The translations under genes were made by a program, and so were the position numbers. This document shows positions 1 through 46,900 of a stretch of 64,000 nt of DNA, in pieces (the stretch's first letter is position 1; each line of letters starts with the position of its first letter). Source of the stretch: Haplodiscus bocki (lineage: Eukaryota). The notes beneath the pieces were generated by a model. That model saw nothing but the letters and a program-made list of their open reading frames with translations, made no database searches and was not told the DNA's origin. The stretch is from the NCBI GenBank assembly GCA_965655095.1, contig OZ296657.1, forward strand, positions 61,628,001 through 61,692,000. The letters run 5' to 3'.

Positions 1-3000
1 TGTTGTTCCAAACTTCTCTCATGTCCGGTTTGATGCAATCTTCAAGCGAATCATGAGCCAGTGCCAGGTAGAGGGAGTCTGTATCCATTTCCATTTCTTG
101 GAAGGAGTTAAAATCACAAACCTTTTGGAAAAAATTGTAATACAATTCAAGCATTCGGAGTTTTGCATACTGTAGGATAAAAAATCCCACAATGATGGGT
201 TCTTTGTGTTCTAAATCTGATTTCACTGATTCGACCTCGTACAAGTTATCATTCAGATGGTTAAGTTTTTTGAAAAACTTGCTGTTGATAGCTTTGTGCG
301 CTTTTTCATCATTCAGATACTTAGTTATAGTGTGTCGACTTTTATCCATAATTTGATAACCGTAGGAGCTATTCGCTAACAGCTTCATAGTCTCAGCTAC
401 TACACTCGAGTGTGGATTTTCATCAACTTTTCCCCGGGCATCCACTGCAGACTGAACAAAGCTATTAAAGCATTTCATTGGAGTGTACTGAACAAAGCGA
501 TAAATTCGGTCACATTCTAATCCAAGATCCAAATAAAAGTTTAAAAGCGGTGTGATAACTGTACCGTTTATGAGATGAAAACTGGATATTAACATTCTCC
601 GGGGTTGAGTCATCGGTTTGTTTTCCTCTGCGTATTTTTTCATTAAGGCGCCAATATCTGAGCGTGAAACGAATATAATTTTGAAAATGGGTGGAACAGA
701 TTCGAATTCCTCTCTCAAGTTTTCTGGTACTCTAAGATCACATTGTACGTAACCAAACAACTCTCCTTTCCGAATGCGAGAAAGTAGGTTCTCAAAGCTC
801 AGAGGACGCTTGTAGGGAAATTTTGATCTGACAAAAGACTTTATCTCATGATTCTCGCGCATGTGAAGCTTCCACTGACACTCCCACATCTCAATGACAG
901 AATTTTTTTCTCGCAAGTAAGATCGACATAAATCGTCCATTTCTCTTTTCCTTTGTCCCTTCACAATGTCTTTATCTGTAAGACAAGGATGCCCTTCCTC
1001 ATATTCGCAAAAGTGATAGAAGCAACCCAAAGCTTCAAAAATTGTGTTACAGTGACTGCAAAACCCATCAACGCTAAAGCAGTCAATCTTTCGCTGAGTT
1101 CCGGTTGTGGAAAAGCTCTCAATATTACATTCCGGTCGCGAGTTCTTGAAGAAAGCCATAACCATGTTCTCAAAGGGTCTGGTTTTATTGGATCGAGGTT
1201 TGAAACGCTGCAAGTCGGCATTAAATTCCCAACGTGTATAAAGTCCAGTCGGCATCGGCTGACACATGGCAAAGGGATATAGCTGACTAGCATCGATACC
1301 TACTATCGATTTGCAAGTCTTTGAAGATGAACGAATACGTGTCTGTCCCACCACTGCTTTTCTAGTGAAAACAATGGAAGGACCGCCAACCATGTCTTCT
1401 CTTATTTTTTCAAGCAAGTCGTTGTCTCCTTCTGGGAATGGGTAAAACTTGACATTCGTGGAGCTATGAAGACAAATGTTTGCGAGATTTGGTAATGTAC
1501 AACCCAGCTTCAACATATCAATTCGCTTACTATGATGAAACTCAATCATTTTTTTCATCGCTTCAAGCGTTGGCAGAACATCCTTGTTATTGTACCATCG
1601 AAGAAAATCTTTGAATGATTGCATGTCGTGGTTTTTCCATACTTGCTCTAAATAAGCATATTTCTCTTGTCCTGTGGGAGGAATTGAAGAAACTCGAAGT
1701 TTTTTCAGCGCTTCTTCACTGCTGCATCCAGAGTTGACGAAACTTTGATAATCATAGTAGGCTTTATCCAGCGGGTTGCAATTACGTAATCGGCTGAAAA
1801 ACTCGTCGTACGGTGGAAGTGTCGGATACGTGAGTTTTTCGGGACTATCAAACCATTTGTACGGGAAAAACCCTTTCGTTTCGGTAGTCTTGTAAGCCTT
1901 CAAGAAGGAATCATGACTAGTTGCACCACCGAGAAAGTTCATAATGTCGAGGAATTGCACGTTTCCAAATTTGGAAGATATATATTGGTTTGCTTTTTTG
2001 ATAACTGTTGGTTCAATCTCCCTGTCATTCACAAGAAGAGGATTCAAGTAAGCTTTTATCAGATTCAAATCATATTTGGCACTGTTGAAGCCGAAAACTG
2101 GAAAGGTATTAACATATCTCTCAAAATGTTGTTGAAGCTCAAATAGCTTGTTTTTCTGAGTCAACAAAAACTGTGTGGAGACGCTAATTTCATCATCATC
2201 GTCACCCATATCCACCAAGCGTTCTTGCGGTTCATTTCCATTTGATAACTGTCTCCTCTTCGTGTTGATGGCTGACAACACACGATCCAGTTTTTCTTTT
2301 ATCCTCGTGGCAATATCATGAAATTTGAGGTTCAACTCCAGTTTATTTTTCTCTGCCAAGCTTTCCACAGAGTTTTTGAATGCTGAGACTAGTGAATGGG
2401 GCTCAGTGTTGCAGATAATTATAGGTTCTTCGAGTAGATTTGACGTTATAGACACTGAAATGGGTTCGTGTTTACCAACCCACGTTGTAGTCTCGGTGTC
2501 AACGAGTTTACAGTTTTTGGCACAAATTGATTCGAAGTCAAAGACTGCAAAATTGTTGAAAAGCGTATCACCGTCTCCCACCTCGATATCGAATGCCCTC
2601 AGTTTGTCAAAAAGAGTTTCTCGAAGTTGATAAACGTATTTTGGATAAATGTTTTTAACCAACTCTTCACACTTCGGCATATGACGTTGTAAATTGGAGC
2701 TCTTTGTGAAAAAAGTATTGCATGTAGAACACCGAAAAGATTCAAAAACCTTTTCACATCAGTAACATAACAGATATGGTTGTTAAATCTCAAGAGAGTT
2801 GCTGTGGAAATGAATCGTCGCAAAGAACGCTCAGCAAGTTCTCCAATAATTCCACCATCAGAAACTTCAATGTCATACACCACAATGTTCACTTCTGCCA
2901 GTCGTTCAACAATATGAAGATCTTCTAACCCATCACCTCGAAAGTTTTGAACTGATAAATGTGGGTTGGCTGTAAGATAGGCAGTGAGTAGTTTCTTTGT

Positions 3001-3920
3001 CTCTTCCTCCACCCTTTCGTTTCCTGTTTTGTGCATACACACAGCCCTTAGCAAGCAAAGGTTGTCTTTGTAACGTTCTTTGTTGGACTTGTAAGTGAGG
3101 CAGTTAACATCGCTTCGTTTAATTAGGTTGGGAGGAAGTAAAATATCCTTACAACCAACAGGAACACTCTTCAGCAATGCAGCAAAAATGGTTACATTTG
3201 TAGTAAAAAGCAACTTCGATTGGTAGAAGATCTTTCCCTTGTACTCAATTCCACAATGTTCAAACCATCCAGTCTCTGCTGAAAATCCGTCAAATCTTCT
3301 TTGTTAGCTATGAGAAGTGACCTTTCTAGAAGTAAACTATTCTCGTGCGCATAGAAATAACGATAACTTCCATCTTCCACATTACGAAGAACGAAACCCA
3401 GTGCTAAAGTAACTTTAGCTGCACAGAGCAAACTTTCGAAAACTTGTTGAATTTTCTCTCGCAGGAACTTTGGTGTAACAATTGTTGAGGCAAAATCGAA
3501 AAGATGCTGTCTACCTCTGACGAATTCGGAATCAACTAAAAAGTGTTGACAGGCTGTGAGCTCCTGACGAAGAGCTTGATCGTCGTAATCGCCCATAAAT
3601 GCGTCCAGGTTCACATTAACATTTTGTATTCTTGACGTTGTACCATGTACCGATTTCTTGTGCCTTTGCAGTGAATAGAAGCTGGGATATTCTTCCTCGC
3701 AAATATTGCATTTTGTTTTTGCTATCATGAAGGGTATTGCATGCTTTGTAGCAGTGTGATGATCCATCTCAGTTTGAGTCTTGCAGAAAAAGTTGGGACA
3801 TTGCGGACAAGATTTTGTTCCAGAGGTGCACGATTTCTTATGCCGTGATAAATTCACTTTTTTCACATTCTTTCCACAGTAATTGCAGGTTGTTTGTTGA
3901 TTACGATCGAGAGATGGCAT
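1..3920 (-). pseudogene. polB: Protein-primed family B DNA polymerase (pPolB), two N-terminal frameshifts, runs off window
   Basis: Manual translation places these motifs in one minus frame between ~2750 and <1: ExoI FDFES (~2530-2545), ExoII GFNSAKYD (~2070-2095), motif A GIDASQLYP (~1275-1300), motif B KLLANSSYG (~360-385), motif C DTDS (74-85). Upstream parts are ORFs 2599..3213 and 3192..3920 (C2H2 fingers), joined by frameshifts at ~2752 and ~3220. Confidence 0.95.
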
Positions 3921-4149
3921 CTTTCCTTCAGTTAGATTAAGTTAGATTATGGAAGAGTTCAAAAATCCTTGAATCAATTTGATAGTCACTAAGCAAAGTT
4001 TAAAGTAAATTAAAAAACGAACTATTTCGTAGTCAATCATTATTCCATAAAAGGATAGAACGAATCAAGTAAAAAATATGATGAAAGAACGAAGTCAAGG
4101 CAGCAACTCGTATCATTCGTTTATTGAATTCGTTTATACTCTGCTACAA

Positions 4150-4470
4150 AATTATTGAAGTGGAACACTTTTCCTCCAGTGAAAACTGAATGTCTGCAGC
4201 AATTAATCAAGTGGAACAGTTAATTCTTAAACCTACCACACTTTGTATGCTGTGTTCACTCATTCGGAACACTCCCCTTCCAAATAGAGACAGTTAGTCT
4301 GAGAAAATTGATCAAGTGGAATATTGCCGCTACAAATAGAGACAGTAAATCTGAGAAAATTGATCAATTGCAACGGTTCCCCGCACAGTTGACGACAGGT
4401 TCTCTGAGAAAATTGATCAACTGTAATTTTTTTCTCCGCCGGTGATGAAGAAGCTCCTGAGATAATTATT
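4150..4470. repeat. Degenerate ~52-bp tandem array in the divergent intergenic region upstream of pPolB
   Basis: TCTGAGAAAATTGATCAA at 4298, 4350 and 4403; weaker copies at ~4150, ~4201 and ~4457. Confidence 0.85.
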
Positions 4471-4760
4471 TCTTTCCGTCATGCTTTTCTCCTCTGCTGA
4501 CGTTGTTACACAAGAATTCAATGGAGCGCAGTAAAATTTAAACTAATCGAACATGCGTGGGATTGGTTGTTTTTCGCCTACACTTACTTTAAAAGAAGAA
4601 AATAAAATCTTTTTATCAAGATATTCTATTTTTTTTTGCAGAGTATAAACCAATAAAAATTCAACACGATAGCACTACTTTTTCATTGGATGTAACACTA
4701 GCTCAAATTTTCTAGTCATATTTTGTTTCTTCTGCATTCAGTAATTCTAAAGACAAGTAG

Positions 4761-6191: not shown

Positions 6192-6306
6192 TGTTTATAA
6201 TATTTTTTTTTCACCATCGTACAAATTTAATCATCTCACTTAATACCTAATGTTCTCTGTTTCTAAATTCAACTTTTCGAAATTGTTTTTCTTTTCATTC
6301 CGCGAA

Positions 6307-6594
6307 ATGTACTTGTTAGATAAGGTTGTATGCATTAGTTTAGTTCTAGTATTGGTAATCGCATTTCTGGTTGCTACGATAGTTATGTACGAAGCGAATC
6401 GTGTCTTGGTACACAATGATACTACTACGTCTTTCACGTTCCAAACGTTATGTAAAGAAGACTACCATGAATATTGTCTTAACGGAGGAGAATGTTATGT
6501 TGTATCAATGAAAGATCAAGAGGAAGCTGTAGCCTGTATGTGTACATCTTTTTATGGAGGTGGTAGATGTGAAAAATATATGTGGTGGACGTAA
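6307..6594 (+). CDS. EGF-family growth-factor-like protein with N-terminal signal/TM anchor (95 aa)
   Basis: Hydrophobic VVCISLVLVLVIAFLVATIVM, then an NDT sequon, then C-x7-C-x5-C-x13-C-x-C-x8-C with CLNGGEC and YGGGRC. Confidence 0.9.
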   Translation: MYLLDKVVCISLVLVLVIAFLVATIVMYEANRVLVHNDTTTSFTFQTLCKEDYHEYCLNGGECYVVSMKDQEEAVACMCTSFYGGGRCEKYMWWT

Positions 6595-6852: not shown

Positions 6853-7467
6853 TTAGAAAAACAATTGTTTGGAAGCTTTTATTTTGAACGATACCAAATT
6901 ACTTTCAAAACCACCGTATCCATCAAGGAAACAGTCAATGATTTTAAATAGTTCCAGTTCAAATTTTGTTTTTCTCCTCACACTCTCGACTCTCTCCACA
7001 AAAACTGATCCGGTTGTTTGAACTGAAATTGACCTTTGAACTGATGTCAGCATGTGTTTTTTCAACTTCTTTCTGAGTAGTCGCTTTTTTGCAATGCTGG
7101 GCATCTTATCCACTCCTTTATTGAGTTTGTTGAACGAAACGGCTCTCTCCACACTATCGAATATTTCTCCATTTTTCTCCAACACCTTGCCGCTGAATCT
7201 CAACTTGAATAGAGTGTAGAAACAATCAACGTGTTGATATGTGAAGCAAAAACGGTCCAGTTTGACAAGTAGGTCATTCAAATCCCTGTCTGCAATGAGA
7301 AGGTGGAAATGGCAATTTTTCAAATAACAAAATGCAGGATCGTGGACTGCTACACAATAGTCACGACAGACTAGGAATTTCTCGTAGTCATCGGTTGAAA
7401 TAAACAAAGATGTCTCGGAAAACTTTTGGAAAAAGCTTGGAATTACTTGCAACATAACTGCAGCCAT
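6853..7467 (-). CDS. Putative HUH-superfamily endonuclease-like protein
   Basis: Intact ORF (likely start M38 of 6853..7578). VAVHD...CHFHLLI (HUH plus hydrophobic strand), downstream Tyr candidates (TYQH, CFYTLFK), basic NLS-like KKRLLRKKLKK. Confidence 0.55.
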   Translation of the reverse strand: MAAVMLQVIPSFFQKFSETSLFISTDDYEKFLVCRDYCVAVHDPAFCYLKNCHFHLLIADRDLNDLLVKLDRFCFTYQHVDCFYTLFKLRFSGKVLEKNGEIFDSVERAVSFNKLNKGVDKMPSIAKKRLLRKKLKKHMLTSVQRSISVQTTGSVFVERVESVRRKTKFELELFKIIDCFLDGYGGFESNLVSFKIKASKQLFF

Positions 7468-7598
7468 TGCTTCGCTTCCTAAATGACAGAATGGAACGTT
7501 GTAAACTTTTACGTTACTAAATGACAGAAAGGAACGTTGTACACTTTTACTTTTCAGATCAGTTAGGTTGTTTTTCATTCAATAGAAACTTGATTTGC

Positions 7599-7885
7599 TT
7601 TTGACCAAAAACAACCATTTCGTTAGCCAATGAAATTTCAACACACCACTTGCTACTGTTTCTCAACACCTTACTCTCGTAAATTAGAAGGAAGCTTATA
7701 TGGCAATGTGTTCCAAATAAGGAATAGATTATTCACAGTGCAACCAAAAAATCACTTTTGACCAAACACAGTCATTTCGTTAATCAATGAAGTTTGGACA
7801 CACTACTTGTTACTGTTTATCAATAGCCTATTCTCGTAGGTCAGAAGGAACCATATATGGAAAAGAGTTCCTAAAAAGGAAATAA
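7599..7885. promoter_or_regulatory. Duplicated (157-bp period) divergent promoter module with CCAAT-like box and paired CArG boxes
   Basis: Units start at 7599 and 7756. GCTTATATGG 7694, CCAAATAAGG 7713, CCATATATGG 7851, CCTAAAAAGG 7870. GGAA directly precedes the first box of each pair. Confidence 0.65.
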
Positions 7886-8025
7886 AGGCAATTGCGAATG
7901 AGAAGGAAAAAAATAACCTTTTCGGTTGTTGTAAACTCAACTGCAATAATCATTTCATCCCGATTCTGTTTCAAATACACTCGATCTAACTTCAATTTCA
8001 ACAAAAATAATTTATTTTAAAAAAG

Positions 8026-8613
8026 ATGATTTTCAACATTACTTCAGCACTCGACAAAACGTCTTGTACGGACTATGTTGATTTCGGCAAAAATGCGGAC
8101 CGATTTGGGAGAATTTCTTGGTCCCAAATCGCAAAAGACAATCAGAAATATCTGGACATCCAACTGAAAGTTTTCCGAAAAGATGACAAGGGAGACTTCC
8201 GCAGACATCAGCAGATAAAGTTGGGGGTATTCGATTTCAAAGAACTCCTCTGTTTGCGGAACCCAATTGTTCTGGCTGTTGGAGAGTTTTCCACAGACGA
8301 GACGCTTAAAGAAGTTGTCACTTCACCCCTATCCAAAGATTTGGATGAACAGCTAAAACATATTCAAAAGGCTATCACAATTGTGGAGCGTCCCAAAAGG
8401 AAGATAATTGCTACCATGAAGAAACACTGCATGGATAAACCGGAAACCACATACGTGCAACTCCGCCTTTTCACGAGAAATAGTGAACATGATAAACTTC
8501 AGCAGCTAGTTCTTGTTAACTATAAATATGATGAATTTTTGTATTTGTTAGATGTTATTACTTCTATAGCTGATCAAGTGTTGTCGAATCAGTCTCTATG
8601 TAACATTGTTTAA
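8026..8613 (+). CDS. Polinton accessory protein, 195 aa, probable tandem PC4-like fold
   Basis: Internal duplication YLDIQLKVFRK...IKLGVFDFKELL / YVQLRLFTR...VNYKYDEFLYLL, resembling PC4 (IDIREYW...ISLNPEQWSQL). Confidence 0.65.
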   Translation: MIFNITSALDKTSCTDYVDFGKNADRFGRISWSQIAKDNQKYLDIQLKVFRKDDKGDFRRHQQIKLGVFDFKELLCLRNPIVLAVGEFSTDETLKEVVTSPLSKDLDEQLKHIQKAITIVERPKRKIIATMKKHCMDKPETTYVQLRLFTRNSEHDKLQQLVLVNYKYDEFLYLLDVITSIADQVLSNQSLCNIV

Positions 8614-9708: not shown

Positions 9709-9969
9709 ATGGCTAACCATGCAGATCAAATCAACTTAGATAAAATTGTATTCGACGAAAACAATTCAGAAAGAAAATCCTGGAGTTGTATTGGACATTC
9801 TTGTTCAACATCGCTAATAGTGTTTTTGTCCCAATTTTTCGCCATCTTGTTAGTTATTCTGGGCAGTTTTTGGAGAATACACTTATCAAAATCTTGCGAC
9901 GAGAGTACAGTTTGGGTGGGAATTTTGTGTAGTGCTGCTGGAATCATTGTCCTTACTCAAAGACTATGA
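9709..9969 (+). CDS. Small two-TM membrane protein typical of Polinton-like elements
   Basis: WSC...LIVFLSQFFAILLVILGSFW...SCDESTVWVGILCSAAG; lies directly upstream of the ATPase. Confidence 0.65.
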   Translation: MANHADQINLDKIVFDENNSERKSWSCIGHSCSTSLIVFLSQFFAILLVILGSFWRIHLSKSCDESTVWVGILCSAAGIIVLTQRL

Positions 9970-10625
9970 ATAAACTTATTTCTACAAAAAATAGAGTTTT
10001 CATCTCTTTAGTGGGACCCGGTGAATCAGGGAAATCTCTACTTAGCCATCAATGGTTAAAAAACGACACCTTCCAACCAAAGTTTGGAAAAATTTTATTT
10101 TTCTACCAGCATTTGCAACCGCTTTACGATGTAAGGCTGAAGGAAATCGAAAACATTGAATTTGTTCAGGGTGTCAATTTTGACTTTATAGATTCTCTGG
10201 AGAACAATGGAACTAAATACCTATTAATTTTTAATGACTCTTGTCAAAAAATTTGTAACTCCAGGGAATTCGAGAAAATTGCTGTAGCAGGAAGACATCG
10301 CGGACTAAGTACTATTTACATAAAGCACAATTTATTCCACAAGAGTAAATTGGGAAGAGATATCGAGCTTCAAAATACTCATATTGTTCTATTCAAGTCA
10401 CCGCGAGATGTATTACAAGTTGGTAGGCTCAGTGTTCAGTTGGGGCTAGGTTTGTCGCTTGTGGATTGGTATAAAGATGCAACATCCGTACCATTTGGTC
10501 ATTTATTAATTGACTTGTCTCCCCGAACGGACGATCGTTTACGATACTGTACAAACAGTGGAAAAAAACCCTCAAAATTTTACATACCTGAACAGTTGAA
10601 ACCTTTGGAGAATTTTGGACGATGA
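9966..10625 (+). CDS. A32/FtsK-like genome-packaging ATPase (degenerate Walker B)
   Basis: Walker A GPGESGKS, Walker B YLLIFNDS (DD to ND), arginine finger GRH..LSTIYIKHNLF. The C-terminus probably frameshifts into the 10615..10911 frame. Confidence 0.92.
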   Translation: MNKLISTKNRVFISLVGPGESGKSLLSHQWLKNDTFQPKFGKILFFYQHLQPLYDVRLKEIENIEFVQGVNFDFIDSLENNGTKYLLIFNDSCQKICNSREFEKIAVAGRHRGLSTIYIKHNLFHKSKLGRDIELQNTHIVLFKSPRDVLQVGRLSVQLGLGLSLVDWYKDATSVPFGHLLIDLSPRTDDRLRYCTNSGKKPSKFYIPEQLKPLENFGR

Positions 10626-10924
10626 CCACACAAAATCGCTCTATTCTCCAAGCATTCCAACACTTTTCCCCCAAGTGCAAAATACAATTTCTACAAAACT
10701 CCCCGAAAGAATTCATTCGGTTCCTAAGCGAATGTATAGTGAACCTGCTCCACGGAAATTTGCAAGATTTGAAAAAAGAGCAAGTAATAAAATATCGAAA
10801 ACAAATCTACGCACTTTCTCTGGTGAGAACAACTTGGAAAGAAAGACGAAGAAATTTGTCAACAAAAAAAGGACTGTTACTAATAAAAACAATATCCCCA
10901 TTCGTCATTAGTCATTTATCTTGA
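10622..10924 (+). CDS. Conserved small basic Polinton protein (ECxxNLLxGN family; 'gasderminX' in adintovirus nomenclature)
   Basis: FIRFLSECIVNLLHGNL...KKGLLLI motif; located after the ATPase. Confidence 0.65.
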   Translation: MTTQNRSILQAFQHFSPKCKIQFLQNSPKEFIRFLSECIVNLLHGNLQDLKKEQVIKYRKQIYALSLVRTTWKERRRNLSTKKGLLLIKTISPFVISHLS

Positions 10925-10925
10925 C

Positions 10926-11338
10926 ATGGAAGAGTTCGTGCTTGTACCAATTTCCGTGTATAACAGTAACAAAAAAACCAACCATTGTTACAAAGAAGGA
11001 ACTAACAACTTATCACAGCGAAAAAAAAACCCACGTACCAGATTGAATCTGTGAAGAAAGAAATCAATAAAAACCTTTTTGCTAAAACTGATTCTCTCGT
11101 TGATAAAGTTTTGTCTTCACCTCGCATAAAACTTTCGACCTCGAACTTTTTAATCTTGGATGGAAGGGATACTGGAGTTTGTCTGACAAACTTTGCCCAG
11201 ACATTGAAACTTAAAAAGGCGGAGGTACCAGATATTTATTTTACTTTACTTGATGCTGCTGATATTACAACCAGCCTGGTTCTGAATAATCATGCCAAAG
11301 AAAAAGAGAGAGGGAGCTGGGTTCCTTTCAAGATCTGA
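10926..11338 (+). pseudogene. Conserved Polinton protein upstream of integrase, frameshifted
   Basis: MEEFVLVP start at 10926; A-run frameshifts lead into ORF 11051..11338 (LILDGRDTG...W). Confidence 0.55.
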
Positions 11339-11966
11339 GAAACAAAAATTGCAGAAGTTGTACAGCGAAGGTCCTGCAGCTTATGGTTCAGTCAAAAACT
11401 TGACAAAGGCAAGCAAACTCCCAGTTTCAAAAGTGCAATATTTTCTTCATTCAAAGTCCTCCTACACGAGATTTAACCAAGCAACCAGAAAATTCCGAAG
11501 AATGAGAGTTTTCGCTAGATTCAAAAACGAAGTTTGGTGTATGGACTTGGCATTTGTCGACAAATTAGCCAAAGATAACAATGGAGTAAAACATTTGCTC
11601 GTTCGTCAAGACATGTTTGACAGAACGGTGGATGCAAAAGGAATGAAAACAAAGGATTCAAAAGAAACCGTTAAAATTTTTTCCAAAATGATTACAAAAA
11701 AGAATCGACCAAAAAAGATTTGGGTAGACCAAGGTACAGAATTTGCCGGAGATTTCACTCCACCCAAATTCGCTATAGGCGATAAAGTTCGGATTTCTAA
11801 GATTGATTTACCCTTCAGAAAAGGTTATAAACCTCAGTTTATGGAAGAAAATTTTGAGATTGTTGCCCTTGCTAGCAGAAAACCTCCGACATACACTATA
11901 AAAGACAATCAGAATTTGGTTATACGTGGTAAATTTTACGAAAAGGAAATGATTAAAGTCATTTGA
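11292..11966 (+). pseudogene. int: Retroviral-type (rve) integrase with in-frame internal deletion
   Basis: WCMDL and WVDQGTEF (first two D of DDE) run directly into PKFAIGDKVRISK...KGY...GKFYEKEM; the catalytic-Glu (ERxxR) segment is absent. Confidence 0.9.
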
Positions 11967-11968
11967 GA

Positions 11969-12753
11969 ATGGATTCCTTCACAATAGAGTTGGTCTCAAA
12001 CGCATCCTCCGAATTGTTTCCGGATAATACTTTAAGTTCTTTCACGAACTTCCTTCCCGAACAAGTCAACTTTGAAGGTCAATGGGAGGTCACAGTATCA
12101 GAGATTTCGTATCCCTCAATGTACCAGAATGTAACGGAAGGAAAATTCTTATTTCACGACAATGAATTATCAAAAACAAAAGATTACTACTACCTTGAAC
12201 CAGGATTATATCATTCTATTACCGACATAGTAGAAGCGATGAACTCACTCATTCAGAATAGAAACAATCACAACACGACCTGCATCGGCGTGAAAGTTGA
12301 TCGTAGATCCCAGAAAGTGACTTTTTCGCTTGTTAATGATAAATCTAGTTTGGTGATATCTAGTATCGACTTGAGTCACATTTTTGGAGGTGACGTCCGG
12401 AACGATCGGGGGATTTTGATGCTTGGTAAGGGACCACACAAACCGTTGTTTGCATACGACATTGTTCGAATTCATTCGCTCATGATTTACACTGATATTG
12501 TAGAGTACAACATAGTCGGAGAAACAAAAGCACCCTTATTGCGATGCTTTTCTTTCATATCGAAGGTAAAGTCCGGTGATGTCATTACCACGGGACAGTA
12601 CATGAATTATCAGACTTTCAGTAATCTACAAACTCCTTTCATAGTGTACAAATTGATTTGCGTGATACGTCTGGGGAGCAAATTCCTTTTGTTTCTGTGG
12701 GAATAACCAGACTTGTTCTCATGTTCAGAAAAGTGTCTGATTTTCATTTTCAA
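11969..12753 (+). pseudogene. Minor capsid (penton) protein, C-terminal deletion/frameshift
   Basis: FTIELVSNAS..FPDNTLSSFTNFLP...GQWEV..SEISYP; IYTDIVE..IVG..KAPLLR. The tail IDLRDTSGEQIPF...LMFRK is in another frame. Confidence 0.85.
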
Positions 12754-12771
12754 ACAAAAAACGTGTACCAA

Positions 12772-13065
12772 ATGGTCGCTTCAAGAGAAGTAAAACTTCC
12801 CTATTACAAAGGAGTGGGAAGACAACGAGGACGAGGGTTTGGCGCTCTCGCTCAAGTTATTGGGAGAACTGCTATTCCTTTCTTGAAAAAATATGTTGTC
12901 CCAGCTGCTAGACGTATCGGTGCTGATATGTTAGGGTTCGCAGTACCTGAAATTGCTGACGTTGTCAGTGGTAAACAAAATTTCAAAGCAGCTGCTAAAA
13001 ACGTGGGAAGGCAAACTCTAAAAAAACAACTCGGTGGTGGAAGTAGGAAAGGCTCCGCGAGCTAA
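12772..13065 (+). CDS. Basic core/membrane-active virion protein with protease-type cleavage site
   Basis: YKGVGRQRGRGFG followed by amphipathic ALAQVIGRTAIPFLKK; lies between the minor and major capsid genes. Confidence 0.7.
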   Translation: MVASREVKLPYYKGVGRQRGRGFGALAQVIGRTAIPFLKKYVVPAARRIGADMLGFAVPEIADVVSGKQNFKAAAKNVGRQTLKKQLGGGSRKGSAS

Positions 13066-13139
13066 GTCATTCAGTCCAAATCCAAGAAGCGCAACAGTCG
13101 GTCACGCAGAGATATATTCACTAACGTTGCGACGTGAAA

Positions 13140-14504
13140 ATGACTTCACAAAATAACTTTCGGTACCAACCATATGTGGCAGCTTCTGGCAATCTTGGTG
13201 GTAAAGTCCCAGTTGTAGATGATGTTCTATCATCTCATGAACAACAAATTTACACCACCACGTCGCTGGATGAAAGCAGCATTGAATTTGAGTTTCAAAC
13301 AGATCGTAACTATTACGTTGATTTGCGTCAGTCTTATTTAGCTCTTAAAGTTAACTTAGTCAAAGGACGTGGTTATGACAAACAAAAATCGAAAGAAGCT
13401 AAGAAGGAACACAAAAACGAAGAACAGCCAACAGAAGCAGCAGCCAATGATGAAGAGGATGATACTAACTCGGTACCCCTTCTTACATATGTAAACAATA
13501 TAATGCATTCTATTTTTTCTAATGTGGAGGTGTATATAAACAATCAGCAAATATACAACTCAAATGGACTCTATGCTCACAAGTCGTATATTTCCAACAA
13601 CTTTAAGGGAGCGATCTCTGAGTACAGGGGTGTTTTGCATTGTGAAGGTTATGACTTCGAAGAGAATCCTGATGACATTCAAGACTCGCTCCTGTCGGAT
13701 CCCTTCTTTTCAAGAAGAATGAAAATGCTACTGAGAAGTGACCGAATTGCGTTATACGGAAAATTGGGTGTTGATTTTTTCACAACCTCCGAATTACTTT
13801 ATCCAAATATGAAAGTTAGAATACGATTAATCAGAGCGAGACCTAACTTTTACATGATTAGCGACAACCCTAATGTTAGTTTAGGAAGTTTAGACTGTAC
13901 GTTGTACACACGTCGCATTGGACTAAAGGAGGATTATCACAAGAAAAGAATGGACATGCTTGCATATGCTCCGATGGAATACAACTATATGGAAACGTTG
14001 GCAAAGACAATTATCATTCCATCCAGTCAAAATCAATTCATTCAAGAAAATATTTTCAACAATGCTCCCATTCGTCGAATCGCGATAGCCATGAATACAA
14101 ACTCCGCTTTCACTGGTTCTTTCACTGAAAACCCGTTTTGGTATCAACAATTCGATCTCAGACAAATTAGAATACTCAGGGGAGGCCAACCAAATGTAGA
14201 TTATGACACTTCCGATAATTGTCGCCTATACGTAACTACGATGAAAGCAATGAACTTCCAAGACGACATACCATCGATTCCTATTGATAATTTTCAAGAC
14301 CATTACGTTCTAGTATTTGGTTTGACGTCAATGCAGGATGCCACCGAACATTGTCATTATCCAGAGTTGGTTGGAGAACCGCTGAGATCGGAGCTTAACT
14401 TTAACACTGCTCTGGAACATGTTACTGAAGTCATTGTATTAGGAGAACGAATGTCTTCAGTTGCAGTCGACAAGTTTGGAGTTGTTGGAAAACATATTCA
14501 GTAA
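13140..14504 (+). CDS. Double jelly-roll major capsid protein
   Basis: Intact ~454-aa ORF with Polinton MCP motifs (IEFEF...YVDL..SYL; NNIMHSIFSNVEVYIN; P.RIAIAM..N.AF.GS..ENPF.YQ.FDL). Confidence 0.9.
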   Translation: MTSQNNFRYQPYVAASGNLGGKVPVVDDVLSSHEQQIYTTTSLDESSIEFEFQTDRNYYVDLRQSYLALKVNLVKGRGYDKQKSKEAKKEHKNEEQPTEAAANDEEDDTNSVPLLTYVNNIMHSIFSNVEVYINNQQIYNSNGLYAHKSYISNNFKGAISEYRGVLHCEGYDFEENPDDIQDSLLSDPFFSRRMKMLLRSDRIALYGKLGVDFFTTSELLYPNMKVRIRLIRARPNFYMISDNPNVSLGSLDCTLYTRRIGLKEDYHKKRMDMLAYAPMEYNYMETLAKTIIIPSSQNQFIQENIFNNAPIRRIAIAMNTNSAFTGSFTENPFWYQQFDLRQIRILRGGQPNVDYDTSDNCRLYVTTMKAMNFQDDIPSIPIDNFQDHYVLVFGLTSMQDATEHCHYPELVGEPLRSELNFNTALEHVTEVIVLGERMSSVAVDKFGVVGKHIQ

Positions 14505-14510
14505 ACTTTC

Positions 14511-15014
14511 ATGGATAACGTTGCTCTTCGTCAAACAAAAAACCGCATTCCACTTCTCAAGTATCGGTACAATGGTTCTTTTCCTTGCGATTATGTTCCA
14601 ACACTCCCGAATGATACGTTTGCCATTATCAACACCCAACCGAGCAACATGCAAGGTGAGCATTGGATTATGATAGCAAAGCTTCGTCATCGGTTATACT
14701 TTGCTGATTCTCTTGGTCGCAAAGACTACAGCTTCCTCAGGAGAAACTACAAACGGATGATCCCAGAACGGTTGCAGCTTCATCAGAGTCTTTGTGGATT
14801 TTATACAATATATGCGGCTCTTCTCTTCAAGTTTGGACAAGAAGAAATTACTGGTGTTCACGATTTAAATGTACTCTCTTTTATTAGTAATTATATGTAT
14901 TGCTCCATAAAATGTAAATGTAAGTATGCAGTGTATACATTTCACTTGTTCCTTTTTGTACTTCTAATTAACATTTTTCAACTTAAAATCAACCTTTTTT
15001 TACATAACATCTAG
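14511..15014 (+). CDS. Adenain-like cysteine protease
   Basis: IINT..S...GEHW, FADSLG, LQ..QSLCGFY (His-Asp-Cys triad). Confidence 0.92.
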   Translation: MDNVALRQTKNRIPLLKYRYNGSFPCDYVPTLPNDTFAIINTQPSNMQGEHWIMIAKLRHRLYFADSLGRKDYSFLRRNYKRMIPERLQLHQSLCGFYTIYAALLFKFGQEEITGVHDLNVLSFISNYMYCSIKCKCKYAVYTFHLFLFVLLINIFQLKINLFLHNI

Positions 15015-15079: not shown

Positions 15080-15359
15080 ATTTTGCACGGTCGCGCCGCC
15101 ACCGGAAGCTGAAAAACTGCTGCCGAAAAATTACATAATAATGTCGCTGCCGCCCGCCTCGACGTTTCCGCCGCCCGCCTCGGCCTATGCCGAAAAATTA
15201 CCTAATAAAGTCTCCGCCGGCCGCCTCGGGGCCCCTGGAAAAAATCAAAACAGGGGGTGAAGACCCTTCTTGGCTCTCGTGTGCTATAGGATAGCTTAAA
15301 ACATGAGGGTCTTCACCCCCCCCCCCCCCCCTGGCTGTCTAGCTCGCCTATATACTACT
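15080..15359. repeat. Right terminal (TIR) region of the Polinton
   Basis: GCCGAAAAATTAC.TAATAA.GTC..CGCC..CCGCCTCG twice (15122, 15189); hairpin GGGGGTGAAGACCCT / AGGGTCTTCACCCCC (15253-15321); poly-C tract; ACTACT end. Confidence 0.8.
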
Positions 15360-17382
15360 CATGAGTCTGGCAGCTAAATGTGCTGCGCACAGTTCCAACT
15401 TCGGAATACTGATTGACTTCAGAGGAGCAACCTTCGTTTTGCATGCATGGAGCTTTGTGGTAACTGATCCATCTAATTTTTCCACTCTGGCGTAGAGAAC
15501 AGCTGCATAGGCCTTTTCTGATGCGTCTGCTAATATATGCAATTCTATGTTTTTCTTACTTTCTGAGCGAATAGATCTGCGAAATTGTATCTGATCTGGT
15601 GAGTTCAATTGCTCATGGCTGCTTGCCACGTTTCTTCTAGGTCGACGGGTAATGTATCGTTCCATTGTAAGCCTTTTACCCAAGCTGCTTGCATCAACAT
15701 TTTGAGGATAATTGTGATCGGAGCTATCCATCCCAAATGATCGAAGAGTTTCGCTATCTCTGAGAGTAGTTTTCGCTTTGTGCTGTCTGTCTCAAAGCTT
15801 CCGTTATCTCTAAAGCAGAAAACATCTCTTGAGGGATACCACACTACTCCCAAAGCTTTGATCGACTTATCTTTCTTGTTCAACTCTAGAACGTCTTTGC
15901 TCTCAAGGAGATGTGGTGTAAGATCTTTGAGGACTTCAACACTTGATGACGACCATTTCCGCAAGGGAAAGCCCCCGCCAAGAAGTTTTTCCTGCAACTC
16001 ATTTCGCAACTTCTTCGCTTCGTCAATTGATTCTGCTCCTGTGAGAAAATCGTCTACGCAACTGTCCCAAAGAATAACTTCATCCACCAGAGAATCGGTG
16101 GAAACCAGACGAGCGAATTCCATATGTTACACGAGTCATCCGTAAATGTTGCAACTCTTCGTTAGGGTCAGGTCTCCAAAATATTCGATGAAAGTCCTTG
16201 GCTTCTTTACTCAACGCCATTTGCCGGTACATTTTTTCAATGTCTGCTGACAGCGCTACTGCGTGTAACTAACACGTAGAAGGATTCCGAAGATGTCGTC
16301 TTGTTGCTTGGCACCCACCATGAGATTTGCATTGAGGGAATTTCCGTTGGTAGTTAACGCTGATCCATCCAAAACAACTCAATTTCGTCGTTGTTGACAA
16401 CTCTTTCATTTCAGCATGATGCGGTAAGTAGAATGATTTCGAAGTTTCAACTGGCACCTCCTCCTCTGGTATGACCTCCATATGTTGCATATCCAAGATT
16501 TCTTGAATGAATGCGGTATACCTTTGCTTCAAATTGCCATCTTGCTGGAACTTCTTTTCCAACGAACTGAATCTGTTCAGAGCCTTTGGTAAACTATGTC
16601 CCAACGATTTGCTATCTGGTTTGAATGGAAGGGAGACTACATACCTGCCATCCTCTTGACGTGTAGTAGTCTCAATGAAGTGCCTTTCACACTCTTTTTC
16701 TTCCTCTGTAAGTAGGGAAGCATATGGAATTTCTTCGATTTCCCAGAATTTTCTGTGCTGGTCGTTGATATCCGGCTGTAGAACTTGAGCATGCAACGCT
16801 ACTGCTTCATCTGGATGAGCGGATGAACTGACGTACTTCCCTGTGACGACCCATCCAAATACTGATTCGCGATAGGACAATTCTTCGGTCTCTTCAATTT
16901 TTCCAGCCATCATGAGTCTTTCATACACGTCGTTCCCAATGAGAATGTCGATTGGACCGGGCTGATAAAATTTTGGATCTGCAAGTTTCAGACGTCTTGA
17001 ACGCTTGAGTGCTTTAGGATCCAATGGTGCGGAAGGTGGTTCCCTTGTGACCTTGTCTAGTACAAATGCTTCGACTGGTATGACACGATCATCACCAAGA
17101 AGATTGAAACTGACCTTGTATTTTGAGAGTGTGCTCCCGACGCACCTATGCTGAAGATTTGCATCGAAAACCTCTCTTTCGCCAGTCCCAAGGTTTGTAC
17201 GCATTGTTCTGGCACCAGCTCAACTGTGCTCCAGGATCTAAGAATGCACGACACTTGATTTGTTCGTGGGATCCAGGTTTTTGTATTGATACCAACGCTG
17301 TGGCAAGACTAACATGAGGATTTCCGTTGATTGCTATTGACAGCTTCGGAGGATTGAGCCATTGCAATATGAGCTCTTTCAT
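15360..17382 (-). pseudogene. pol: BEL/Pao pol fragments (protease, RT, RNase H)
   Basis: RAFLDPGAQ; LADPKFYQPGPIDILIG; YLPHH; CVDDFLTGA (from YVDD); ADASEKAYAA...KTKVAP..SIPKLEL; many frameshifts. Confidence 0.9.
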
Positions 17383-18662
17383 TACTCAGCCTTTCTCTGT
17401 GAATCAAGGAATGATGCTTTCCACGGCAAGTTCGGCAAACTGACTTGCTTGGGCATTGACTGATCATGTGAGACGATCGTAGACAATTGAAACACAGCTT
17501 CTTTTGCCTCAAGTTGACTCGAGCAGCAACATCGAGAGATGTAAATTCTTGAAATTCTGCACCTTGTGATTTCCTCGGCAAATTTGGCAAATATTGGTCT
17601 CTGTGACACTTGCACCGTACGCTTGACCGCGTTCTGGTCCGGATTGAGTATGTCCATACCCTCTTCTAGTATTGGAGCCTTTTTTGCGCTATTGACGGTT
17701 TTCGTTTCTGCGGGGAGCACGCTTTTGAGTTTTGCAGAACTAGATTCTAGCGCACGACATCGCTCTCACAAGAAATCTGTTATCTGTTGAATTGTTTGAA
17801 GATCATTGCCTGCATGAGCTAGTTCCCATGCCTTCCTTGATTCTGAGTCGAGCTTCTGACTGATGTGGTAGACTAGGATTGCATCCCATTGATGTACAGG
17901 CACACCAAATGTCTCTAATGCTTGCATTTGTTCTCGAAAAGTTTCAAGAAGATTCCGCATTTCTTGGGCTGTTTCACCCTTCATGAATGGAACTTCCAGC
18001 ATTGCTCTGATGTGGCCTCTAACAACCAATCTAAGGTTGGCAAACCTTGTTTGAAGTGCGTTTCTGGTTCCCGCGCAATTTGCATCTGTAATTGTCAAAT
18101 TTCTGATAATTTTGGCTGCATCTCCTTTCAACGATGCCTTAAGATATTGCAATCTCTGAGCATCCGTCAAGGTTTCGTTGGTGTGCACTGAGGCATTGAA
18201 TAAATCCCAAAAGCGGTTCTACTGTAGATATTCTCCGGAAAGTACCGGAATGTTCATTTTTGGTAGTTTGAATCCTTGACGCGTTTGTCGTCTCTCATCT
18301 TGCATTGCCTGCGGAGCCTGATTGACGAGAGCCATTGGTTGATCTGCTTCTGCGAGCAGTCTCGTGATCAGAAGGATCGTTTGCGTAATGGCATCGAGGT
18401 TCTCTGACGATTCTGCCACCTCTGCTTCCGATGCATCGTCGTCCTCAATCAGCATTTCAATCTCTTCGCCTAAATCTGCTATTAGGCTTCTCTTCGACTC
18501 GAGTGCTGTTTTCAAGCCAAACAATTCATTTGGCTGTGCTACTGTGAGCTGTGCCATCGGAACTGCTAAAATTTGCGCTGCTTTGTTGGTGTAACGTGTT
18601 GCTACACCTTTGTGCGAGGCACGTGGGCGTACTAATCTCATTTTCCTTTCGTGGTCTTCCAT
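17309..18662 (-). pseudogene. gag: BEL/Pao gag fragments
   Basis: KLPKMNIP; QRLQYLKASLKGDA; zinc knuckles CFNCLRSSHMISQC and CRTCRGKHHSLIH. Confidence 0.9.
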
Positions 18663-43926: not shown

Positions 43927-46900
43927 TGTTCAACGCCTTAGGTAATATTAAAAAGCAGATTCAACGGTGTAAATACTGTATTCGTATTTCATAGCGGTAC
44001 AAAAGTTCAACAGAAACTACGTACAGAAGCATCAGTCATTAAGTACATTATTTACCAATGTTTGGCTAAAAATGTGTCTTTTCGCTGTTATCACATTTTC
44101 CCCTCCGTGGAAATTCATAACTTCTCGCCTTCTCCTTTTTGCATCTTTTCCATCTCAATCGTTTTCGCTGTTCCTCCGCCATTAATATAATCCCGGCACA
44201 GGAAACAATTGATATTTCAACTGTTTGATATTGCATCTTACCGATTTGGCAATTTTGCTAACGGTAGTTTCTGATGACCTCTGGCTTTTTCCGGGTTAAT
44301 TTATTCGGTGAACCCCCATAATCATTATCAATTTGACTTTCTCGACCTGCCGGTGCTGATTGTATGACGCTTTCGTCTGCCGAGTTCGGGTGCAGTATCA
44401 TGTCGTCTTCTAGATTGTTGTACACCGGATTGCAGTCCAACTTGTAAAGTCAAACTCGGCAACACTTACTCAGGTTCACGTCTTCCCGATCCTCGCTCCC
44501 AAATTTTCCATTACAGTCCTATTTGGCTGATCCATTTTCTTCTTTTCGCAGAAGCTATTGTTGCTGTTGTAACCATTCAAGGCCTGTGCGGTCCTCGCTC
44601 CTCTGTCTGGTTGCAGGTCATGGCTCTCGTCGTCATTGATCTGGTATTGTAATTGATGTTCGGGTTGGGTGGTCCGTGGTTTTCTGGTCTAAGACTTCGT
44701 CTCGTCCTTGCTTCGGAAAGCTGCAAATTAGACTGGAGTTCATCGTTAGTGCTGGTCACGTCGTTCCCCCTCTAGCACTATCAAGGGGTTATGGTGTTGC
44801 CTGGTCCGCCAACCGTTAAGGTTCATGTGGGCAGTGTCAATTGAAATATGACTGCTTTGCAGCTCATTGGCAGTGTCAGCAGTCTTGGTGGTCTGGTGCC
44901 AATCCGAGAGGTCTCCAGCGACCACTACTGGTTTTCTCTGGTTTCTATCAGCAGGTCTGTTTTTCTCAAGAGACCTGTTACTCTGGCTGTTCTCATGTTC
45001 GTTTTCAGTCAGTTTTAGGAAGGCTGCCGCTTCAACAGGCTGATTCTAAAGGCTGCGTACAGTAAGGTCGGTTTCATTGCCCGGAAAGTTAAAAAGATGG
45101 TGAGTGTCGTGGGGGCCGGTTTTACACAGTTCGCATTGGTCAGGTACATTTATATTTATTCGACTGTTGTAGCTGTTGAGAACAGAGGAATAGCTCGATC
45201 GTAGTTGTGACAGTTTAACTCTTGCTTCCGTTGGAAGTTTCTCTTTATCGCCTTTGATTTCGGGAGCAGTGGTTTGTAGCAGTTTTGAGGTACCTATATA
45301 CACTTCTTTCACTTCAGGTGTGTGCATGTTTCAGCCCTTTTTTGTATGCAGCCTTGATTAGTGTTTTGGTCGAAAAGATAAGGAATTGATGTTTTGAATA
45401 ACCCATTGAGCGCGGGACAGGCCGTTCTTTTGCCTTCGAGTTCCGTGACGATGTTATGGTCCGATCTTGAGGGGAGGTAGCTGCCCAGTAGGAACTGTTT
45501 TGAAAGGAGTTCCTTGCGCTTCTTTACTGGTAGCATTTTCGTCTCTCTGTGCAGGTGTTCGATTGGGGCCAATTTCAGGTTACCTGTAACAGTACGGAGG
45601 GCAGCGTTTTGTTTAGTTTGCAGTATGTTCCAGTTGGTATGAATGAGTGTGGGTGTCCAGATTGGAGCTGCATAGTTCAGTACGCTGCGCCCTATTGCCT
45701 TGTATCTCACTAAGAGCGTCTCTTTGGTGCACCCCCAATCAGAGCCTGCAATTTGTTTTAGGACATTGTGTCTTTTTTCAGTTTTTCGCTGATGTTCTTG
45801 CTGTGGCGACCGAAGGTCATCATGTTGTCCAACTTGACGCCAAGGATCTTGGGAAATCTTGTCACGGGTATAATTTTGCCATTCACGATGACGTTTGGGC
45901 TGAAGAAGGGTTACATCATCTACGTATGTCACGATTGAGATTTCGCCTGGTGGTAATCGCAGAGATCTCATGTACAGATTGAAAAGGAAGCGCAAGACCA
46001 CCCCACCATGTGGGACTCCTTGTTTCACTTTTCGCCGTTTCGATTTAGTTCCTTCGTATTCTGTGTATGTTTGTCTATCTCGCAGGTATGAGAGCAACCA
46101 TCGTTTAGCATGATTGGGCAGGTCGGTGTTGTTGAAGTCATGCAGCAGCGTTCCGTGACTGACTGTGTCAAAAGCTAACTTCAGATCTAACGCAAAGAGT
46201 ACGGCGCGGTGGCATGGCTTGGGTTTGTTAAGACCATTTTTAATCATATGGTTGATACAATTTAGTGCCGTGTTGGTGGATCTATTCGGTCGAAACCCAT
46301 GTTGGTGGTTTTGGAAATTCATGTGAGTTTCGAGAGTCTGGAGCAGGAGTTTCTCAGCTAGTTTCGCCACAGGTGAAACTAGCGCTATTGGTCTCTACTT
46401 CTTCGACTGCTAGAGATCCTTACCTGATTTTGGTATTGGAACCACCCTTCCTACTCTCCAGGTTTGGGGAATGATGGCACTATTGAAAGAGGCGTTGATC
46501 TTAAGGTGCAAGTAGGCATGGCCCAGTTCGCCTAGGTAGTGCAGGTGGATGGGAGCTATGCCATCATGTCCAAGGGCCTTACTTTTTTGCTACTTTTGAT
46601 GGCCTCACAGATCATGTTTGTGCTGACCGCGTTGTAATCAATTCTTAGTTTACAGCACGTTCGCACCTCTTGCGGAATGTTGTCAGGTTTTGTCTGGTGC
46701 GAAGTAAACTGCAGGTTGAAGAGATTTGCGATCTTTCTTGGTTTCACAATAGGTAGATTCTCGAACTTTATGAGACGGTTGACGGATTTTTTGGCCGACC
46801 CCCTGTCAGTGCTTTCACTGTTGACCAAAGCTTAGCTGATTCGCTTTCGTGGTTGACAGTTGTGAGGAAATCTACCCATCTCCGCTTTTTGTGTTCTTGT

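What the first reader, a model, noticed from the sequence alone, without database searches (positions are those of the whole stretch)
7599..7885. Duplicated Ets+CArG (serum-response-element-like) promoter inside the element
Seen: two diverged units, each with two CArG boxes 19 bp apart (three perfect CC(A/T)6GG, one with a single mismatch). GGAA abuts the first box of each pair, and a CCAAT-like box lies upstream. The A/T cores differ between units but the CC/GG frames are mostly kept. At roughly 60-65% AT, a perfect box is expected only about once per 13-14 kb. Known: Ets+CArG is the c-fos SRE architecture read by TCF/Elk-SRF downstream of EGFR-ERK. The module lies between divergent gene blocks.
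Basis: partly seen in the sequence, partly recalled or inferred. Interest (0 to 1): 0.75.

Follow-up and report, generated by a model that had tools for sequence, protein, structure and literature searches.

The report
Conserved CArG promoter in EGF-carrying Polinton
A virus-like jumping element in an animal genome keeps paired binding sites for the host's serum response factor in the gap between two of its genes, as distant sister elements appear to do, and it also carries its own growth-factor-like gene, so it may time its activity to host growth signals, though nothing has been tested at the bench.

Summary
The motifs are real: a 157-bp duplication (127 nt, 80% identical) carries two CArG boxes per unit, 19 bp apart. 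It lies in the 558-bp gap between divergent genes of a decaying, multi-copy Polinton. The duplication makes four boxes out of two, but one pair alone beats chance (1.5e-4 per unit; 3 of 300 window shuffles). No DNA of relatives could be fetched. Gene-caller read-throughs of sister elements (35-53% protein identity) translate their upstream DNA: two frames together fix a perfect CArG box and a CACGTG E-box there, and the module is tandemly repeated. This indirect evidence is the main support for an SRF-read promoter. Against it, boxes vary among close copies as much as their flanks (4 of 40 listed variants). The Ets/TCF reading is weaker: AAGGAA fits only the relaxed motif, abuts the box 2 bp closer than in c-fos, and that geometry is absent from 17 of 17 sister readings. 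CCAAT is in unit 1 only. The rightward gene encodes a PUR/Whirly-fold protein; a neuregulin-type EGF gene lies 1.1 kb away. SRF sites are known in HCMV, HTLV-1 and MERVL; I found none reported for Polintons.

The parts
7468..8025 (.). Non-coding gap between divergent genes; candidate bidirectional promoter
   Evidence: Left gene's conserved start at 7467; right gene starts 8026; no Rfam match, no unusual fold, z -0.24
7598..7724 (+). Unit 1 of the 157-bp duplication
7755..7881 (+). Unit 2 of the duplication, 80% identical over 127 nt
7694..7703 (.). CArG box 1a, one mismatch in this copy; polymorphic among copies
   Evidence: (perfect form in 47% of X1 and 20% of X3 depth; a core break at 7699 in 29% and 12%)
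7713..7722 (.). CArG box 1b, perfect
   Evidence: only an A/T swap at 7718 among the 40 rows shown
7851..7860 (.). CArG box 2a, perfect, 175 bp upstream of ORF 8026
   Evidence: matching box inferred in sister subfamily at 133-142 bp upstream
7870..7879 (.). CArG box 2b, perfect; core broken in some copies
   Evidence: (7873 A>G in 36% of X3 depth, 0.5% of X1)
7688..7693 (+). AAGGAA abutting box 1a (weak Ets-like word)
   Evidence: relaxed motif only
7845..7850 (+). AAGGAA abutting box 2a (duplicate of the former)
7627..7631 (+). CCAAT, unit 1 only
7476..7551 (+). Two 38-bp tandem copies just upstream of the left gene, variable among element copies
   Evidence: D11; joints skipping 35, 38, 40, 49 bases
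8026..8613 (+). 195-aa two-repeat PUR/Whirly (PC4-like) fold protein; likely single-strand nucleic-acid binding
   Evidence: model pLDDT 74; Foldseek PURA E 4e-5, Whirly, MRP1/2; 86 homologues
6853..7467 (-). 204-aa conserved element gene of unknown function
   Evidence: 1393 homologues; no Pfam; model poor, pLDDT 44; no Atlas hit
6250..6594 (+). EGFR-ligand-like gene: N-terminal hydrophobic stretch, then one C-terminal EGF domain with six cysteines (likely start 6307); convergent with the left gene, so not driven from this gap
   Evidence: best PDB matches neuregulin-1 E 3.7e-6, epigen, EGF; 38 homologues; Atlas EGF clusters at 0.84, a lead only
4045..4054 (.). Perfect CArG box in the element's other divergent gap, about 105-125 bp upstream of the PolB gene
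   Evidence: not followed up
2..3941 (-). Polinton type B DNA polymerase gene, split over three reading frames and cut by the window start
   Evidence: motifs DFES, FNSAKYD, DASQLYP, KLLANSSYG, DTDS read by eye (labels recalled); zinc fingers only in Pfam
9966..15014 (+). Morphogenesis block: packaging-ATPase-like, integrase, minor and major capsid-like, adenain-like protease
   Evidence: rve E 5e-6 and Peptidase_C5 E 0.002, both below Pfam cut-off; ATPase and capsid labels rest on Walker A motif and gene order, recalled, no call confirmed them (empty)
15353..15359 (-). Probable right end of the element (AGTAGTA on the minus strand), followed by Pao retrotransposon sequence
   Evidence: terminus word recalled; Peptidase_A17 E 4e-15 at 15605-16123

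Best explanation
The gap is the element's bidirectional RNA polymerase II promoter or enhancer, and its working core is a set of CArG boxes bound by the host's serum response factor (SRF). Shown: boxes, duplication, position between divergent genes, Polinton context. Inferred from peptides: a sister subfamily keeps a CArG box, an E-box 6 bp downstream and often a second CArG-like box upstream of the same gene, in 1 to 4 tandem 48-bp modules; a third subfamily has three compatible boxes. Inferred from known biology: SRF dimers bind the boxes, multimerisation raises output, and the promoter switches on a single-strand-binding protein and a second early gene when the host cell's SRF is active (growth, wounding or actin signals). 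Which SRF cofactor acts, TCF or MRTF type, is open.
For: Pair beyond chance. Between units all 3 changes in the A/T cores stay A/T, against 2 of 19 outside the boxes (Fisher p 0.0065; partly ascertained). Of 13 sister read-throughs of 50 aa or more, 7 have a perfect-compatible and 4 more a one-mismatch-compatible box 133-142 bp upstream of the gene. Two frames together allow only one 10-mer, a perfect CArG, for each of two core variants, which are the two cores seen in boxes 1a and 2a; a frame alone allows 72 or 8 words. E-box peptide SRD 5 seen, 0.26 expected. A left-gene relative (P0380) reads the same E-box and box from the other strand; cluster P0372 has three compatible boxes in 11 of 14 further members read. 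Box-to-box distance is 29 bp there and 19 bp here, one helical turn less. Precedents: HCMV, HTLV-1, MERVL.
Against: No relative was read as DNA (empty). The two-frame result assumes that peptides from different copies read the same site. Raw count of CArG-compatible peptides is only 17 against 11.4 expected from translated host DNA (P 0.07; 3 of 2000 residue shuffles reach it). The degenerate patterns were chosen after seeing the sequences, and sister copies are related by descent, so they are about one or two independent events. In an unbiased scan the box was one of two islands of likeness, with 4 proteins in one bin, a level reached in 2 of 15 shuffles. Among close copies 4 of the 40 listed variants fall in boxes (2.3 expected), two of them breaking a core; 57 rows were not shown. 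This subfamily has no CACGTG and no TATA(A/T)A in the gap. No binding, start-site or expression data.
Confidence: 0.62

Rival explanations
1. One reading: a c-fos-type serum response element in which a TCF/Elk-type Ets protein binds GGAA beside SRF and relays EGFR-ERK signals (a sub-case of the best explanation).
For: AAGGAA meets the (C/A)(C/A)GGA(A/T) motif as given in PMC3310822 and is kept in both units; a GGA(A/T) 3-6 bp upstream of the box is possible in 10 of 17 sister readings; the element carries an EGFR-ligand-like gene.
Against: No match to CCGGAW, CGGAWG or GGAWGT next to the boxes (hexamers from PMC2794171). The core abuts the box, whereas c-fos has 2 letters between core and box and enriched spacings run 1-6 beyond that (PMC3159476). 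Abutting form possible in 0 of 17 sister readings. GGA(A/T) is common, 15.8 per kb, 27% chance within 10 bp of any box. The two GGAA are one duplicated event.
Confidence: 0.22
2. The words are conserved binding sites, but for something other than SRF: another host factor (for example YY1 on the ATGG half, recalled) or an element-encoded protein, or a cis signal for replication or packaging.
For: The first box and the six letters after it look kept as a block between subfamilies; the second box sits in an A-run and is perfect-compatible in only some sister repeats (T-K-K-G or P-K-K-G in 3 of 13 long read-throughs); the left gene has no known function.
Against: Cores change freely among A and T while the CC/GG frame stays, which is the SRF signature; boxes 1b and 2b lack ATGG; the companion CACGTG is a host-factor site; no MADS gene among the 25 ORFs scanned.
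Confidence: 0.22
3. Chance words in an A/T-rich, purine-skewed spacer, doubled by a neutral tandem duplication.
For: Boxes vary among close copies as much as flanks; single-unit forms exist as contigs (joints skipping 157 and 158 bases, one contig each in X3); 3 of 300 shuffled windows hold a pair; this copy is decayed.
Against: Dead copies mutate neutrally, so within-family variation says little; the box recurs at the matching place in subfamilies 35-53% identical in protein.
Confidence: 0.14

Closest known systems
c-fos serum response element (SRF + TCF/Elk-1/SAP-1)
   Same: CC(A/T)6GG box with a GGA(A/T) core on its 5' side, upstream of a gene (definition in PMC3510432 and PMC4023608, passages read).
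   Different: Boxes come in pairs and the pair is duplicated; the core abuts the box and has poor flanks; the geometry is not kept in sister elements.
Viral SRF sites: HCMV major immediate-early enhancer (SRF/ELK-1) and HTLV-1 LTR vCArG/vSRE
   Same: An animal virus promoter carrying host SRF sites (PMC7690695, PMC3510432; review passages).
   Different: Those are a herpesvirus and a retrovirus of mammals with binding and function shown; this is an endogenous Polinton, internal and bidirectional, untested.
SRF motif in MERVL LTRs (MT2C_Mm, MT2_Mm_i)
   Same: A multi-copy endogenous element whose subfamilies differ in an SRF site and partner sites (PMC11960700, passages).
   Different: LTR retroelement of mouse with reporter and loss-of-function data; no growth-factor cargo described in the passages read.
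Polintons/Mavericks (adintoviruses)
   Same: PolB, rve integrase, ATPase, capsid-like and adenain-like genes, host-manipulating extras upstream of PolB (PMC8502044 section 3.2).
   Different: That paper's main text has no 'promoter', 'EGF' or 'growth factor'; its listed extras are Rb-binding oncoids, Bcl2 and IAP.
Poxvirus growth factors (vaccinia VGF); recalled, no call supports it (one search listed no paper with the term)
   Same: A DNA virus encoding an EGFR-ligand-like protein.
   Different: Poxviruses transcribe in the cytoplasm with their own polymerase, so the ligand cannot feed back on a host-factor site in their own promoters.

Membership tests
CArG box / SRF site | CC(A/T)6GG sequence | tested here: met
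   3 perfect, 1 one-mismatch
CArG box / SRF site | Frame and A/T core constrained across lineages | tested here: inconclusive
   Supported by two-frame peptide inference in sister subfamilies; not seen among close copies; no DNA of relatives
CArG box / SRF site | SRF binds and is needed for transcription | not testable with these tools
   needs EMSA, ChIP, reporter
c-fos-type SRE (TCF + SRF) | Ets motif (C/A)(C/A)GGA(A/T) next to the box | tested here: met
   AAGGAA at 7688 and 7845 (motif from PMC3310822)
c-fos-type SRE (TCF + SRF) | Elk-1-type flanks (CCGGAW, CGGAWG, GGAWGT) | tested here: not met
   AAGGAAGC and AAGGAACC; no C(C/A)GGA(A/T)(G/A) in the gap
c-fos-type SRE (TCF + SRF) | Spacing at or beyond that of the c-fos ternary complex | tested here: not met
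   core abuts the box, 2 bp closer than c-fos; abutting form possible in 0 of 17 sister readings
c-fos-type SRE (TCF + SRF) | MAPK-dependent induction | not testable with these tools
   no RNA run listed
CCAAT box (NF-Y) | Exact CCAAT kept at a fixed place | tested here: not met
   unit 1 only
Polinton/Maverick | Type B polymerase plus rve integrase | tested here: met
   polymerase motifs by eye; rve E 5e-6, below cut-off
Polinton/Maverick | Capsid, ATPase and protease module | tested here: inconclusive
   Peptidase_C5 E 0.002; capsid and ATPase by motif and order only
Polinton/Maverick | Terminal inverted repeats and target duplication | tested here: inconclusive
   one end word at 15353-15359; the other end lies outside the window
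EGFR/ErbB ligand (ORF 6250) | Six cysteines spaced 7-5-13-1-8 with Y-x-G-x-R before the last (signature recalled) | tested here: met
   sequence; nearly all of 28 PDB matches are EGFR/ErbB ligands, neuregulin-1 first; Pfam EGF below cut-off
EGFR/ErbB ligand (ORF 6250) | Binds and activates a host EGFR | not testable with these tools
   no host receptor at hand

The most novel reading that the evidence does not exclude
This Polinton subfamily runs a feed-forward loop through its host: it encodes a neuregulin-like ligand that activates host EGFR-ERK signalling in the same or neighbouring cells, and SRF complexes on its duplicated CArG modules then switch on its replication genes, tying the activity of an endogenous DNA virus to growth or wound signalling.
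Probability: 0.18. Interest if true: 0.82.

Novelty: new variant of a known kind. Interest (0 to 1): 0.55.

Why it matters
How Polintons are transcribed and what triggers them in animals is not addressed in the Polinton papers I searched. A defined 558-bp promoter with paired SRF sites, natural variants across copies and subfamilies that differ in partner sites makes the question testable with EMSA and reporters. If the EGF-like cargo feeds back on it, the element would be a small DNA virus lineage that both induces and senses a host growth signal. If only the CArG part holds, it extends a known viral strategy to a new group.

Tried and rejected
No whole genome is held. Loci of relatives: none in viral, metagenome or prokaryote collections with ORF 8026, its alignments, P0110, the capsid-like ORF or the left-gene alignment. 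A CArG plus E-box pattern gave 1 match in viral contigs, unrelated to this element by tblastn and blastn. No RNA holder listed; this is no evidence on expression. Structured RNA: no Rfam match, folding z -0.24. Coding reading of 7468-7578: rejected, relatives start at 7467 and copies differ there by 35, 38, 40 and 49 bases. An HUH-endonuclease reading of the left gene, suggested by HFHLL in this copy, was dropped: relatives have K, T, Q, R or I in place of the first H and the model was unusable. ORF 4761 as a second PUR-like protein: probability 1.3%. PHROGs: 0 of 8 proteins; PDB sequence search with the polymerase frame: nothing below E 0.37. A TATA-compatible Y-I/Y-K peptide 90-114 bp upstream in 10 of 25 sister read-throughs is one frame only and is not used as evidence. 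Earlier findings of this scan: six look-ups, none on this locus or motif. Host lineage was not established.

Full report
Observation. A 127-nt block is repeated at a period of 157 bp with 25 differences. Each unit has two CArG boxes 19 bp apart (7694 with one mismatch, 7713, 7851, 7870) and GGAA directly before the first. The chance rate of one perfect box per 13 kb is right. CCAAT is exact only in unit 1. Because the whole block is duplicated, only one pair counts. One unit gave two perfect boxes in 0.015% of 20,000 shuffles, and 3 of 300 shuffled windows held a perfect pair within 40 bp anywhere.

Setting. The block lies in a Polinton-like element that fills the window from base 1 to about 15,359. 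It has a type B polymerase gene split over three frames (motifs read by eye), an rve integrase and an adenain-like protease (weak Pfam matches), ATPase-like and capsid-like genes (labels by motif and order, recalled), and an end word typical of Polintons followed by Pao retrotransposon sequence (end word recalled). The gap 7468-8025 separates divergent genes. The right gene folds as a two-repeat PUR/Whirly protein (pLDDT 74; PURA E 4e-5), a likely single-strand-binding protein. The left gene is widely kept (1393 homologues) but unexplained. At 6250-6594 lies a gene with a hydrophobic N-terminal stretch and one EGF domain whose best solved relatives are neuregulin-1, epigen and EGF. It had 38 homologues, 37 of them 71% identical or more; that search needs shared exact words, so distant forms may be missed. 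It is convergent with the left gene and so is not transcribed from this gap. The family is multi-copy: 86 homologues of the right gene, and 264 and 250 contigs laid from two runs.

Close copies. I laid 4 of the 6 listed runs on 7440-8140; all are contigs, none on record as RNA. Of 97 variant rows 40 were shown; 4 fall in boxes, against 2.3 expected. Box 1a is perfect in 47% (X1) and 20% (X3) of depth; a core break at 7699 reaches 29% and 12%; one at 7873 reaches 0.5% and 36%; 7718 is an A/T swap. Two X3 contigs skip 157 or 158 bases, so one-unit forms may exist. Close copies therefore show no extra constraint on the boxes. Most are probably dead and mutating freely, so this weakens the case little but does not help it.

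Distant relatives. No DNA could be fetched. However, gene callers had extended some homologues upstream through stop-free DNA, and those extensions translate the promoter. Of 272 right-gene homologues held, 42 had 15 or more upstream residues and 30 belonged to a sister group, with 35-53% identity in those that carry the signature. Two peptide series recur there, of the types L-L-I-W-K-C-H-V-T and P-Y-M-E-M-S-R-D. Read as two frames of one site they allow a single 10-mer, a perfect CArG box, for each of two core variants, and these are the cores of boxes 1a and 2a; each frame alone allows 72 or 8 words. The same logic gives CACGTG 6 bp after the box, and a second perfect box 29 bp from the first where T-K-K-G occurs. 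Here the distance is 19 bp and there is no E-box. Of 13 extensions of 50 aa or more, 7 have a perfect-compatible box and 4 more a one-mismatch box 133-142 bp upstream of the gene; 12 of 17 box readings are followed by an E-box-compatible peptide; P0157 repeats the module four times at 48 bp. Among 120 left-gene homologues, 28 had extensions: P0380 reads E-box then box from the other strand, and a third group (cluster P0372, about 60% identical) has three compatible boxes and an E-box in one frame, in 11 of 14 further members read.

Limits of that evidence. It is inference from peptides. The total of CArG-compatible peptides, 17, is only modestly above the 11.4 expected from translated host DNA (P 0.07), though above residue shuffles (3 of 2000). 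The loose patterns were chosen after looking. Sister copies share ancestry, so they amount to one or two independent events. An unbiased scan for likeness between sister extensions and this gap gave 25 blocks (shuffles 1-18); 9 blocks from 6 proteins fell on boxes 1a and 2a, but a second, A-rich island at 7731-7765 scored as well, and 2 of 15 shuffles reached 4 proteins in one place.

The Ets claim. AAGGAA meets the relaxed TCF motif (PMC3310822) but none of the Elk-1 hexamers (PMC2794171). In the c-fos structure two letters lie between core and box, and enriched spacings are 1-6 beyond that (PMC3159476); here there are none. An abutting core is possible in 0 of 17 sister readings, a core 3-6 bp away in 10 of 17, and such cores occur 15.8 times per kb. 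MRTF-SRF complexes need the box only (PMC3310822). A TCF role is thus neither shown nor excluded.

Mechanism. Most likely (0.62) host SRF dimers bind the boxes and drive the two flanking early genes, with subfamilies multiplying the module in different ways. The c-fos-type TCF version is a sub-case (0.22). Another reader of the words (0.22) or chance plus neutral duplication (0.14) remain. The boldest reading not excluded (0.18) is a loop in which the element's own neuregulin-like ligand activates EGFR-ERK and so its own promoter.

Comparison and novelty. SRF sites are known in the HCMV enhancer (PMC7690695), the HTLV-1 LTR (PMC3510432) and MERVL LTRs (PMC11960700); for these and PMC4023608, PMC3159476, PMC2794171 and PMC3310822 I read passages only. 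For Polintons I read passages and section 3.2 of PMC8502044 and searched its one held supplement, which was cut when stored; I ran term searches in PMC11071296 and PMC11131425. None mentions EGF, growth factor or promoter. Ten library searches listed no report of CArG boxes or an EGFR ligand in a Polinton, judged from listings; supplements, figure maps and subscription papers that I could not see may hold one. Verdict: a real, probably functional promoter module; new variant of a known kind; interest 0.55.

Noticed in passing
window 6250-6594: Neuregulin-type EGF gene carried by the element, apparently limited to this subfamily plus one 42% relative (P0309); no such Polinton cargo found in the papers searched. 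Worth a finding of its own.
   Followed up: partly
window 4045-4054: A further perfect CArG box in the element's other divergent gap, upstream of the polymerase gene; 4 of the element's 5 perfect boxes lie in its two gaps.
   Followed up: no
window 4266-4422: Three 52-53-bp tandem copies (65-83% alike) in the other divergent gap, with an inverted pair at 4128-4151 and 4631-4654.
   Followed up: no
window 7950-7955: TCATTT 76 bp upstream of ORF 8026, initiator-like (consensus recalled); sister read-throughs often show N-H at a similar distance.
   Followed up: no
window 8026-8613: Two-repeat PUR/Whirly-fold protein family with 1196 representatives at E 0.001 or better and no Pfam match.
   Followed up: partly
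window 15121-15228 and 15255-15320: G+C-rich 41-bp repeat pair and a hairpin-like stretch by eye just inside the element's right end.
   Followed up: no
window 15360-18662 and 45309-47425: Pao-type retrotransposon remains next to the element, and a LINE-type reverse transcriptase remnant further on.
   Followed up: no
run X5 on window 7440-8140: A coral-metagenome run holds six low-depth contigs of the same subfamily, one spanning boxes 2a and 2b with 4 other letters in 136.
   Followed up: no
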